Source: Escherichia coli (GTDB taxonomy: Bacteria; Pseudomonadota; Gammaproteobacteria; Enterobacterales; Enterobacteriaceae). From it: DNA of 64,000 bases. The stretch lies in the NCBI RefSeq assembly GCF_009931435.1, contig NZ_CP043414.1; one strand, given 5' to 3'. Position 1 is the stretch's first letter; every line of letters starts with the position of its first letter. The position numbers were made by a program, and so were the translations under genes. Shown one piece after another: positions 10,463 to 12,423 of the stretch. The notes under the pieces are model-generated. The model had not been told where the DNA came from, made no database searches, and saw nothing but the letters and a program-made list of their open reading frames with translations.

Positions 10463-10855
10463 ATGTACGCAAAATCCTTTCTCGCTCTTGATGGCAACGG
10501 ACGTCTGACGGGCGCCCGTACAGCACAGGCCGCACCTTATGCTCACTACACCTGCCACTTGTGTGGCAGTGCACTCAGATACCATCCGCAATACGACACT
10601 GAACTTCCCTGGTTTGAACACACTGACGACAGGCTGACAGAGCACGGTCAACAGTGCCCTTATGTCAGGCCGGAGCGCAGAGAAATACAGTTGATTAAAC
10701 GTCTGCAGCAATTCGTACCGGATGCCTTACCCGTGGTGCGTAAAGCCAGCTGGCACTGCAGACAATGTCACCACGATTATTATGGGGAGCGGTACTGCAC
10801 ACACTGCCAGACCGGAGGTTTCAGTCTTCCCCGGACAGCTCAGCAACTGTCTTGA
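10463..10855 (+). CDS. Uncharacterised zinc-ribbon protein (paralog 1), CxxC pairs and PWFEH motif
   Basis: 130 aa; CHLC ... PWFEH ... CRQC-x10-CTHC; AAGGAA Shine-Dalgarno upstream; paralogous to 12019..12423. Confidence 0.6.
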   Translation: MYAKSFLALDGNGRLTGARTAQAAPYAHYTCHLCGSALRYHPQYDTELPWFEHTDDRLTEHGQQCPYVRPERREIQLIKRLQQFVPDALPVVRKASWHCRQCHHDYYGERYCTHCQTGGFSLPRTAQQLS

Positions 10856-10864
10856 ACGTAAAAA

Positions 10865-11833
10865 TTATGGAGCAACGTGATGGTACGATTCATTCCATTC
10901 TTCGTTCTTTCTGAGCATTGCGTTCAGGATAGTCAGCAGCTTGCGTATACAGGCAACCAGCGCCACTTTTTTGGGTTTTCCTGCGGCAAGCAGTCGCATG
11001 TAAAACACCTTTATTACCGGGTTAAAGCGGGTTGCGACAAGCGCTGCCATGTACAGGGCTGTTCGCACACCAGCCCTGCCGCCAAAGATGGTTCGTCGCC
11101 CTCTCATCGTGCCCGAGTCCCGGTTTACTGGAACCATACCGACAAGCGCACTGATTTCACGCCTGGAGAGGTTACCCTGTTCGGGTACTTCCGCCAGCAG
11201 CGCAGCAGCCGTCATGGTGCCAACACCTTTAATATTGCTCAGTCGCTTAGCAAGCTCTTTGAAGTGGCTATGGATATGGCTGTTCATGTCAGCATCTAGT
11301 CGCGCAAGCTCGTCTTCCAGTGCTTTGATGATGATATTAATGCTTTTCCTGTTCTATGGATGAGCAGGGTGCAACCGGTTTCTCTCGGCAACCAGCATCG
11401 TAATCAACTGCCGCCTACGAACTACCATTGCAGTGAGAACCTGACATTCAGTATCCGGCAGTGCTCTGATAAAGCGTTCCCGCTCCGGATGCCGGTTGAG
11501 AACCTCAGCCATCTGGTAAAGCACTCTGGCATCAATACTATCAGTTTTCGCGAGGTATCCCATGGTGCGGGCAAAGTCACGAGCTTGTCTGGGGGTAACC
11601 ACGGCAAGCTCAAAACCTTCTGCCTGAAGCGCACAGACTATGGCGGTTTCAAGTCCTCCAGTGGCTTTCATTAAAACCAGCGCAATGGCGTACATTCTCA
11701 ACTCAGCAATGATGGCCTCAAAGCCATCACTGTCATTGCCGACAGAAAATTGTTCAATAGCGCTGCTGGCGGCAATATCCAGTATCGCTTTCGAAACATC
11801 GATACCCACACAAAGTGAACCTGGCTGACTCAT
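10865..11833 (-). pseudogene. IS110-family transposase interrupted by a single in-frame amber codon (TAG at 11356..11354)
   Basis: ORFs 11851..11354 and 11287..10865 share one reading frame; the 22 codons between them are open apart from the TAG. Confidence 0.7.
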
Positions 11834-12005
11834 GATTACCCATCCTTGCAAATGCGTTATGGCGTACTGACAACTGTTCGGGTTTCAGATGAGTGGCTCA
11901 GTGTATGCGCCATTCGCTGAGCTACGGGCTATGAACCCCTTGAGGGATCGGGCTGCATACACCTTGCCAAATCTAATCACAGTTATTTTAACCAATTGTC
12001 AAGAT
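11834..12005 (-). ncRNA. Candidate IS110-family bridge-RNA region (structured 5' non-coding arm); hypothesis only
   Basis: 8 bp stem (11901-11908 with 11955-11962) enclosing a smaller hairpin; TTGACA hexamer on the minus strand at 12002..11997; analogy to IS621-type elements. Confidence 0.25.
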
Positions 12006-12018
12006 ACAAGGAGGAGAT

Positions 12019-12423
12019 ATGCGAATTCTGAACTGCTATATGGCGAATGACAGCAAAGGCCATTTTGTTACGGCGAAAGAAGCCGCGAAGAACAACCGAC
12101 AGGACGTTTTGTGCTGTGTGTCCTGTGGTTGTCCGTTAACACTTAAGCGGGGCAATGACGGACAACCGCCGTGGTTTGAACATGACCAGATGACTGTTGC
12201 TGCGAAAATCCTGCTGCGATGCACCTGGCTTGACCCGGCAGAGAAAGAGGCCCGTCGTTTGCATCTGCAGGGCATGACGGTTCCGGATTATACGGTGAAG
12301 GTGAGAAAGTGGTTTTGTGTGATGTGTGACGAAGATTATGAGGGGGAAAAGTGCTGCCCGCGTTGTGGTACCGGGGTATACAGCAGGGATAGGGGGGCTG
12401 CAGGAGGGCAACTGGAAGGATAG
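12019..12423 (+). CDS. Uncharacterised zinc-ribbon protein (paralog 2)
   Basis: 134 aa; CCVSCGC ... PPWFEH ... CVMC-x9-CCPRC; strong AGGAGGA Shine-Dalgarno; same architecture as 10463..10855. Confidence 0.6.
   Translation: MRILNCYMANDSKGHFVTAKEAAKNNRQDVLCCVSCGCPLTLKRGNDGQPPWFEHDQMTVAAKILLRCTWLDPAEKEARRLHLQGMTVPDYTVKVRKWFCVMCDEDYEGEKCCPRCGTGVYSRDRGAAGGQLEG

What the first reader, a model, noticed from the sequence alone, without database searches (positions are those of the whole stretch)
10463..12423. Two paralogous uncharacterised zinc-ribbon proteins flanking the IS110 element
Seen: ORFs 10463..10855 (130 aa) and 12019..12423 (134 aa) share architecture (N-terminal CxxC, a PWFEH motif, C-terminal CxxC-x9/10-CxxC), each with a good Shine-Dalgarno, on the same strand directly downstream of the HUH Rep-like gene. 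I could not assign them to a named family from memory; the HF.H-like motif after a zinc ribbon is reminiscent of CoiA-type N-terminal domains, but there is no nuclease domain. Tandem divergent paralogs of small zinc-binding proteins in a mobile-element cargo position are candidates for regulatory, anti-defence or defence-associated functions.
Basis: partly seen in the sequence, partly recalled or inferred. Interest (0 to 1): 0.55.

Follow-up and report, generated by a model that had tools for sequence, protein, structure and literature searches.

The report
Island-backbone zinc-ribbon gene pair
Two real, related small zinc-binding proteins from a catalogued but unstudied enterobacterial family form part of the conserved backbone of P4/CP4-type genomic islands in E. 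coli; here a dead insertion sequence has split them, and this copy is otherwise ordinary.

Summary
ORF1 (10463..10855) and ORF2 (12019..12423) are genuine paralogs (32% identity, E 4e-17). Both have a C2HC site around the WFEH motif and a C-terminal C4 zinc ribbon.

They do belong to named families: Pfam DUF7828 (E about 1e-31) plus Zn_ribbon_11, formerly DUF3279. Both are identical to RefSeq proteins WP_000271005.1 and WP_001221631.1. The window is the E. coli CP4-44-type island next to cobUST.

In most E. coli genomes the two genes overlap by 13 nt. Here a roughly 1,167-bp IS110 relic, whose transposase has an internal stop, landed in that overlap. It replaced the last six codons of ORF1 and sits just 5' of ORF2's Shine-Dalgarno. 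The ORFs are not fragments of one gene, and they are backbone genes rather than cargo. In 12 of 12 loci with enough upstream sequence they follow a YfjJ/YagK HUH nuclease gene, often with alpA between, and they precede the variable cargo slot.

The family is confined to Enterobacterales. It is absent from 50,697 phage genomes and has no PADLOC, PHROG, NCBIfam or PDB relative and no literature. Both genes are under purifying selection.

The function is unknown. My best guess is that they are non-enzymatic, nucleic-acid-binding accessory factors of the island's excision/replication module. Interest is modest.

The parts
9728..10297 (+). yfjJ/yagK-type HUH nuclease gene ('inovirus Gp2 family protein'). 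This is the RefSeq start; the ORF is open from GTG 9692. It is the first gene of the presumed operon.
   Evidence: Pfam YagK_YfjJ_C E 8.9e-48 and REP_ORF2-G2P E 2.5e-5. HUH motif HYH at residues 94-96 and YLAK at 168-171. RefSeq annotation.
10463..10855 (+). ZnR-A (ORF1, 130 aa): DUF7828 plus Zn_ribbon_11. The last three codons and the stop (QLS*) come from the IS; they replace the ancestral EEICEF*.
   Evidence: Identical to WP_000271005.1.
10844..12010 (-). IS110-family insertion relic of about 1,167 bp (junctions ambiguous by 1-2 nt). The transposase pseudogene (10865..11851) has an internal stop. A 158-nt structured non-coding left end lies at 11852..12010.
   Evidence: Empty-site comparison with Nissle 1917. 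RefSeq note 'internal stop'. Two ORF fragments of 140 and 165 aa. Left-end RNA fold z -2.85.
12010..12016 (+). Shine-Dalgarno of ZnR-B (GGAGGAG), retained just 3' of the IS junction.
   Evidence: Sequence and alignment to the empty site.
12019..12423 (+). ZnR-B (ORF2, 134 aa): DUF7828 plus Zn_ribbon_11, lineage B1.
   Evidence: Identical to WP_001221631.1. AF2 model pLDDT 88.
7814..8089 (-). AlpA-type HTH regulator/excisionase gene of the same island backbone (context).
   Evidence: PHROG excisionase families, E 9e-10. 73-77% identical to the AlpA genes that sit between yfjJ and ZnR in other genera.
7125..7727 (-). Conserved backbone gene of about 200 aa with no family assignment (context). 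Its homologs sit directly upstream of ZnR genes in locus L003.
   Evidence: No Pfam match. tblastn to the L003 177-aa protein, E 2e-17.
5247..6800 (+). YfjI/DUF3987 helicase-like backbone gene (context).
   Evidence: PHROG 2373 'DNA helicase', E 2e-81. RefSeq 'YfjI family protein'.

Best explanation
What is shown. ORF1 and ORF2 are the A and B members of a two-gene module of small proteins, each DUF7828 plus Zn_ribbon_11. The module belongs to the conserved backbone of P4/CP4-type integrative islands of Enterobacterales. Each protein has two cysteine/histidine clusters that look like structural zinc sites: C2HC in the N-terminal domain and C4 in the C-terminal ribbon. Neither has a candidate catalytic residue set. 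The genes are normally translationally coupled through a 13-nt overlap. They lie on the same strand directly after the island's HUH nuclease gene (yfjJ/yagK), often with alpA between, and directly before the variable cargo slot. In this window an old, now inactive IS110 element inserted into the overlap. Both reading frames survive, but the pair is uncoupled.

What is inferred. The proteins are most likely non-enzymatic binding modules that act with the YfjJ/AlpA part of the island. They may bind nucleic acid through the CoiA_N-like zinc finger and serve as accessory or specificity factors for excision, rolling-circle replication or mobilisation, or for its transcriptional control. In that reading A is the conserved partner and B is an exchangeable one.
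For: Family assignment: (35 of 35 members hit DUF7828, 34 of 35 hit Zn_ribbon_11).

Zinc-ligand pattern: the only invariant or nearly invariant polar residues in the alignment are the Cys/His ligands.

Weak CoiA_N and DUF7830 similarity recurs across members.

Gene order: yfjJ-(alpA)-ZnR-(ZnR) on one strand in 12 of 12 loci with upstream sequence. These come from E. coli, Klebsiella plasmids and unnamed metagenome or genome contigs.

Coupling: a 13-nt or 4-nt overlap in IS-free loci.

Backbone rather than cargo: matches in about 4,090 of 5,426 complete E. coli genomes, median 2 loci per genome. What follows the pair differs between loci: Kiwa, type I R-M, SMEK/CTD10-MC6-DUF2326, Eco57I-like R-M, gentisate and sugar-acid operons.

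Selection: dN/dS 0.11-0.35 in comparisons with at least 10 synonymous differences.

A is conserved and B is swapped: A is 88-90% identical where the partner B is only 32-37% identical.
Against: There is no direct evidence of nucleic-acid binding, of zinc binding, or of interaction with YfjJ or AlpA.

The pI is unremarkable, median 8.0.

A fused A-linker-B AF2 model gave pTM 0.43, so it offers no support for a fixed heterodimer. The tool reports no PAE, so this test is weak.

The module is dispensable for at least some islands. K-12 CP4-57 has yfjJ followed directly by abpBA/rnlAB and has no ZnR.

No domain fusions link the family to any enzyme or DNA-binding domain.

Co-linearity with yfjJ may reflect shared backbone ancestry rather than shared function.
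Confidence: 0.4

Rival explanations
1. The proteins are anti-defence or host-takeover factors. In this reading they are small zinc-stabilised protein binders that neutralise a host or competitor function when the island is induced or transferred, and the variable B partner reflects an arms race.
For: The islands carry a leading-region-like block with antirestriction, DUF932, a WYL regulator and a GTPase. B has been exchanged between lineages while A is conserved. The proteins are small, stand alone and have no enzymatic motif.
Against: The genes lie in the yfjJ/alpA operon, not in the antirestriction block, and on the opposite strand from it. dN/dS is below 0.35, with no sign of positive selection in the comparisons made. 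The family is absent from all 50,697 phage genomes and nearly absent from plasmids, which is where anti-defence genes usually abound.
Confidence: 0.2
2. The proteins are zinc-finger transcription activators functionally analogous to P2 Ogr or P4 Delta. They would switch on island, cargo or helper-phage genes. The two tandem paralogs would mirror the internally duplicated Delta protein, which also sits near the cargo hotspot of P4.
For: There is a positional analogy. In P4, sid-delta-psu lies next to the int-proximal variable region. Here yfjJ-alpA-ZnR-ZnR lies next to the cargo and the P4-type integrase. The proteins are small zinc proteins occurring in tandem or as fusions.
Against: No homology was found: hhalign probability 4% and BLASTP E 0.2 against P4 Delta. 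No Ogr_Delta Pfam hit appears even at E<=10. There is no significant match in BFVD viral structures. Nothing shows that these islands are phage satellites, and the loci examined have no capsid-redirecting or packaging genes.
Confidence: 0.12
3. The proteins are the sensor, regulator or first component of the adjacent defence cargo, and so are defence-associated.
For: Defence systems often follow immediately downstream: Kiwa, type I R-M, SMEK/CTD10-MC6-DUF2326 and Eco57I-like systems. B co-varies with the downstream region.
Against: The same pair precedes unrelated cargo, including purely metabolic operons, or precedes nothing but IS debris as in this window. No PADLOC model matches. CP4-57 carries defence cargo (AbpAB, RnlAB) in the same slot without ZnR genes.
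Confidence: 0.1
4. The proteins are enzymes: a CoiA-like or His-Me-finger-like nuclease that uses the WFEH histidine.
For: There is weak CoiA_N similarity. One family member is annotated 'Competence protein' in UniProt.
Confidence: 0.03

Closest known systems
Pfam DUF7828 (PF25165) plus Zn_ribbon_11 (PF11682, formerly DUF3279) proteins; RefSeq 'putative zinc ribbon protein' / 'zinc-ribbon domain-containing protein'
   Same: The window's proteins are full-length members with the same two-domain architecture, length and invariant residues. They are 100% identical to WP_000271005.1 and WP_001221631.1.
   Different: Nothing differs except the IS-derived C-terminal tail of ORF1 and the loss of the gene overlap. 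The family has no known function, no solved structure and no literature.
N-terminal domain of competence protein CoiA (Pfam CoiA_N, PF25164) and the related DUF7830
   Same: A CxxC knuckle is followed about 15-20 residues later by an aromatic-F-x-H motif. HMM similarity is weak: E 0.018 for ORF2, and 9 of 35 members at E<=0.1.
   Different: The ZnR proteins lack CoiA's PD-(D/E)XK nuclease core and C-terminal domain. The fourth zinc ligand is a downstream Cys rather than the second His of HFxH. The context is a genomic island, not a competence regulon.
P4 Delta / P2 Ogr zinc-finger late-gene activators
   Same: Both are small zinc-binding proteins of P4-related elements, duplicated in tandem, and located near the int-proximal variable region.
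   Different: There is no detectable sequence or profile similarity and the Cys spacing differs. No Ogr_Delta Pfam hit was found. The family is not present in any sequenced phage or satellite in the phage collection.
Generic zinc ribbons (Pirh2 C-terminal domain 2k2d, RPB12, Nop10, eL43)
   Different: These matches cover only 36-39 residues and say nothing about function. The N-terminal DUF7828 domain has no structural match outside its own family.

Membership tests
DUF7828 + Zn_ribbon_11 family | Significant match to both Pfam HMMs, in N-to-C order, covering the models | tested here: met
   ORF1: DUF7828 E 4.4e-31 (model 1-87 of 87) and Zn_ribbon_11 E 3.2e-9. ORF2: 2.3e-30 and 8.1e-18.
DUF7828 + Zn_ribbon_11 family | Conserved ligand pattern: CxxC ... 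(W)F(E)H ... C, and W-x-CxxC-x9/10-CxxC | tested here: met
   All ligands are present in both ORFs. They are invariant or at least 90% conserved in 35 members.
DUF7828 + Zn_ribbon_11 family | Genomic context: same strand, directly downstream of yfjJ/yagK (and alpA) in a P4-integrase-type island | tested here: met
   Seen in the window and in 11 other loci.
DUF7828 + Zn_ribbon_11 family | Actual zinc binding | not testable with these tools
   Inferred from the ligand pattern only.
CoiA (competence protein) family | CoiA_N domain | tested here: inconclusive
   E 0.018 for ORF2 and not listed for ORF1. 0 of 35 members match at E<=0.001 and 9 of 35 at E<=0.1.
CoiA (competence protein) family | PD-(D/E)XK nuclease core following the N-domain | tested here: not met
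   The proteins are 130 and 134 aa and end after the ribbon. No nuclease family appears in the Pfam scans. For the position of the CoiA core see PMC1189080.
Ogr/Delta zinc-finger activators | Sequence or profile similarity to P4 Delta / Pfam Ogr_Delta | tested here: not met
   hhalign probability 4% and BLASTP E 0.2. No Ogr_Delta hit at E<=10.
Known anti-phage defence systems (PADLOC-DB v2) | Match to any component model | tested here: not met
   0 families at E<=0.01 for ORF1, ORF2 and three neighbouring genes.
Phage protein families (PHROGs) / phage-encoded | PHROG match, or presence in sequenced phage genomes | tested here: not met
   0 PHROGs. tblastn of ORF2 against 50,697 phage records found no match. 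ORF1 was not searched separately.
Single gene disrupted by the IS | Continuous homology across the IS to one protein in IS-free genomes | tested here: not met
   IS-free loci carry two complete genes overlapping by 13 nt. Each ORF aligns full-length to the whole family model.

The most novel reading that the evidence does not exclude
ZnR-A and ZnR-B are trans-acting DNA-recognition subunits of the minimal HUH nuclease YfjJ. Together with AlpA they would form an undescribed rolling-circle replication or mobilisation module that lets CP4-type 'cryptic prophage' islands amplify or transfer after excision. The exchangeable B subunit would set origin or partner specificity.
Probability: 0.12. Interest if true: 0.6.

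Novelty: already known. Interest (0 to 1): 0.3.

Why it matters
This family is present in roughly three quarters of complete E. coli genomes, often in several copies. It always sits at the junction between the conserved control genes of CP4/P4-type islands and the slot where those islands carry defence and metabolic cargo. K-12 has lost intact copies, which probably explains why nobody has studied it. If the pair proves to be an accessory of the YfjJ HUH nuclease or of AlpA-driven excision, it would help explain how these very common 'cryptic' islands are maintained, amplified or moved. This particular locus adds nothing new beyond an IS-split allele.

Tried and rejected
- NCBIfam, PHROGs and PADLOC gave no match for either protein.
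- A profile search of PDB sequences found nothing below E 0.2.
- Literature searches for the DUF and Pfam names, 'Ybl85', 'putative zinc ribbon protein' and the WP accessions found no relevant paper.
- I guessed that K-12 yoeG and yoeH were remnants of these genes. Their translations show no resemblance, so this was rejected.
I surveyed context with the look-up of encoding contigs and annotated hits instead.
- The heterodimer test used a fused A-(GGGGS)6-B sequence with a block/paired alignment. The domains are confident, but pTM is 0.43 and no PAE is available, so the result is inconclusive.
- Homology to Ogr/Delta was rejected.
- A search for inverted repeats or hairpins that could be a HUH nick site around yfjJ and after ORF2 found nothing convincing.
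- The promoter/terminator scan gave fewer sites than shuffled sequence and is uninformative.
- Rfam found nothing in 8000-13000.
- A search for Rosetta-stone fusions found only tandem self-fusions.

Full report

Yes. The ORF listing returns ORF1 at 10463..10855 (130 aa) and ORF2 at 12019..12423 (134 aa), both on the + strand. BLASTP aligns them at 32% identity over 125 residues, E 4e-17.

The motif description is accurate. A 35-member family alignment has these invariant or nearly invariant residues (ORF2 numbering): C33, C36, F53, H55 and C68, then W98, C100, C103, C113 and C116. That gives a C2HC cluster built around the WFEH motif and a classical C4 ribbon.

Both genes have a Shine-Dalgarno. 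AGGA lies 9 nt before the ORF1 ATG, and GGAGGAG ends 2-4 nt before the ORF2 ATG (sequence).

The upstream gene is a YagK/YfjJ-type HUH protein. It matches Pfam YagK_YfjJ_C at E 9e-48 and REP_ORF2-G2P at E 2.5e-5, and it carries HYH and YLAK motifs.

**2. Where are we, and what is the IS doing?**

The region is 100% identical to many E. coli chromosomes. It is the CP4-44-type island beside cobUST. RefSeq calls the two proteins 'putative zinc ribbon protein' (WP_000271005.1) and 'zinc-ribbon domain-containing protein' (WP_001221631.1). The intervening gene is an IS110-family transposase pseudogene with an internal stop.

About 4,090 of 5,426 complete E. coli genomes match the region, with a median of 2 places and up to 9. 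Only 643 genomes contain the IS-bearing allele. In the rest, for example Nissle 1917, the two genes are adjacent and overlap by 13 nt.

Aligning the empty site locates the insertion between CTCAG and GAGGA, at about 10844..12010 (roughly 1,167 bp). It replaces the ancestral C-terminal EEICEF of ORF1 with QLS. It lies just 5' of ORF2's Shine-Dalgarno. Both zinc modules remain intact.

The ORFs are therefore not halves of one gene, and 'flanking an IS' is a secondary state of an overlapping gene pair. The IS has no near-identical copy elsewhere in E. coli; other matches are at most 87% identical. It is a fixed relic.

**3. What family?**

Both proteins match Pfam DUF7828 (E 4e-31 and 2e-30, full model) followed by Zn_ribbon_11, formerly DUF3279 (E 3e-9 and 8e-18). 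All 35 diverse homologs hit DUF7828, and 34 hit Zn_ribbon_11.

CoiA_N scores E 0.018 for ORF2, and 9 of 35 members reach E<=0.1, best 1.3e-3. The sibling family DUF7830 behaves similarly. CoiA_N is not the nuclease part of CoiA, whose PD-(D/E)XK core is at residues 56-209 (PMC1189080). No nuclease family matches the ZnR proteins.

NCBIfam, PHROGs and PADLOC give nothing. A PDB sequence-profile search gives nothing below E 0.2. No paper mentions the family names, 'Ybl85' in a relevant sense, or the accessions.

**4. Structure.**

AF2 on the 35-sequence alignment gives pLDDT 88 and pTM 0.59. The N-domain (about residues 1-87) runs beta-beta-alpha-beta-beta-beta-alpha-alpha. A less confident linker follows, then a three-stranded ribbon at 96-124.

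Apart from the ligands, no polar residue is invariant. The Glu of WFEH is replaced by S, M, I, T or D in some members. The proteins therefore look like binding modules rather than enzymes. The pI is unremarkable, median 8.0.

**5. Distribution.**

An exhaustive phmmer search of 1.84 billion representatives finds only 171 clusters at E<=0.001. A profile search of 5.8 billion clusters finds 398. All of those listed that carry a credible organism name come from Enterobacterales: Escherichia, Salmonella, Yersinia, Enterobacter, Citrobacter, Klebsiella, Serratia, Lelliottia, Edwardsiella and Hafnia. Every listed hit carries only these two domains, and the few longer proteins (190-240 aa) presumably hold a second copy of the family domains.

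ORF2 has no tblastn match in 50,697 phage genomes. It matches only 28 of 72,556 plasmid records, several of which are mis-filed chromosomes.

**6. Context.**

Distant members sit in the same kind of element (uniform tblastn map).
- One strand carries a block with a YeeP/YfjP-type GTPase, DUF932, antirestriction and a WYL/HTH regulator.
- The other strand carries yfjJ, often alpA, and then one or two ZnR genes. Sometimes there is an extra N-domain-only copy, or a fusion of a truncated copy with a full copy.
- Variable cargo follows: Kiwa, type I R-M, SMEK/CTD10-MC6-DUF2326, Eco57I-like R-M with an HATPase gene, or metabolic operons.
- Where the end is preserved, a P4-type integrase closes the island.

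A yfjJ homolog lies upstream on the same strand in 12 of 12 loci with enough sequence. When two ZnR genes are present, the A-type ('MYAKSF...') always comes first.

K-12 is uninformative. CP4-44 has lost this segment. CP4-57 has yfjJ followed directly by the defence cargo abpBA and rnlAB, with no ZnR gene (PMC10732053). The ZnR pair is therefore backbone, positioned at the edge of the cargo slot, and it is not indispensable to every island.

**7. Evolution.**

dN/dS is 0.11-0.35 for both genes wherever at least 10 synonymous differences exist. The two higher values rest on 5 or fewer synonymous changes.

A-type proteins stay 88-95% identical among E. coli islands, while their partners fall into two lineages only 32-37% identical to each other. 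These are B1 ('MRILNCY', as here) and B2 ('MNGIKTG'; probably the proteins UniProt calls 'Ybl85'). B has therefore been exchanged while A was kept. This fits an exchangeable partner, or simply B's position next to the recombining cargo.

**8. Mechanism.**

The following are shown:
- two conserved Cys/His ligand clusters per chain;
- no catalytic signature;
- operon-like linkage to a minimal HUH nuclease and to AlpA;
- translational coupling of A and B;
- purifying selection.

The rest is inferred. The proteins probably act as accessory or specificity factors, most likely binding nucleic acid through the CoiA_N-like finger. They would serve the island's excision/replication/mobilisation control module. 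I give this about 0.4.

A fused A-linker-B AF2 model folded both halves but gave pTM 0.43, so it neither supports nor excludes a heterodimer.

The rivals, with rough probabilities:
- Anti-defence or host-takeover binder, about 0.2. The placement and the absence from phages and plasmids argue against it.
- Ogr/Delta-like activator, about 0.12. There is a positional analogy with P4 but no homology.
- Defence-associated sensor, about 0.1. The same pair precedes unrelated cargo or no cargo.
- Nuclease, about 0.03.

**9. Verdict.**

The finding is real but ordinary. It describes a known, catalogued and functionally uncharacterised family, in a common E. coli island, in an IS-split allele shared by about 640 sequenced genomes. 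The family would be a reasonable target for someone studying CP4/P4-type islands. Nothing at this locus is surprising. Interest is 0.3, and novelty is 'already known' as a family, with the function still open.

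Noticed in passing
window 10844-12010 (minus-strand element): The IS110-family relic has a 158-nt non-coding left end upstream of the transposase start and only about 21 nt after its stop, which is the layout of IS110-group elements that encode a bridge RNA. That left end folds better than shuffles (z -2.85, 1 of 200), but Rfam has no match. The transposase is broken into fragments of 165 and 140 aa. No near-identical copy exists elsewhere in E. coli.
   Followed up: partly
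window 12019-12423 versus L019 8469-8894 and L017 5025-5405: Two B-type lineages occur in E. coli. A-type partners are 88-90% identical, while the B genes next to them are only 32-37% identical. This indicates cassette exchange of the second gene at the backbone/cargo boundary.
   Followed up: partly
proteins P0029, P0030, P0035, P0038, P0044, P0045, P0052: These are mosaic B proteins that switch between the B2-type and B1-type sequence at or near the conserved WFEH motif. One carries a duplicated 'WFEHD'. They may be true recombinants or assembly chimeras between paralogous island copies. Each is a singleton cluster.
   Followed up: no
L007 7483-7731; L008 7001-7717; proteins P0226, P0227, P0004: The family also occurs as an N-domain-only copy (82 aa) after a full copy. 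It also occurs as a fusion of a truncated DUF7828 domain with a full-length protein (238 aa in L008). P0226, P0227 and P0004 are also long (225-240 aa) but were not inspected. Up to three DUF7828 domains sit in a row.
   Followed up: partly
window 7125-7727 (-); L003 6458-6991 and 8537-9067: A backbone protein of about 200 aa has no Pfam match at all. In the window it lies after the alpA-like gene. In locus L003 its homologs lie immediately upstream of each of two ZnR genes, 9-10 nt apart, which suggests another linked partner.
   Followed up: partly
window 12714-15126 and up to cobU at 16173: The cargo/integrase end of this island is a graveyard of transposase fragments: ISL3 with an internal stop, an intact IS30, and IS3- and IS4-family pieces. 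These abut a truncated cobalamin gene and cobU. No integrase and no cargo remain on this side.
   Followed up: no
AFDB/UniProt entries; P0014 and P0036: There are database artefacts. Many family members are named 'DNA-directed RNA polymerase, beta subunit/140 kD subunit' in UniProt, with no visible basis. Near-identical E. coli-type proteins are labelled Veillonella sp. (a MAG) and Pseudomonas aeruginosa, which probably reflects contamination.
   Followed up: no
window 8767-8916 (+): A small Hha/YmoA-family nucleoid-associated regulator gene lies between the alpA-like gene and yfjJ. It is conserved at the same position in other E. coli copies of the island. It may be relevant to H-NS silencing of the module.
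   Followed up: no
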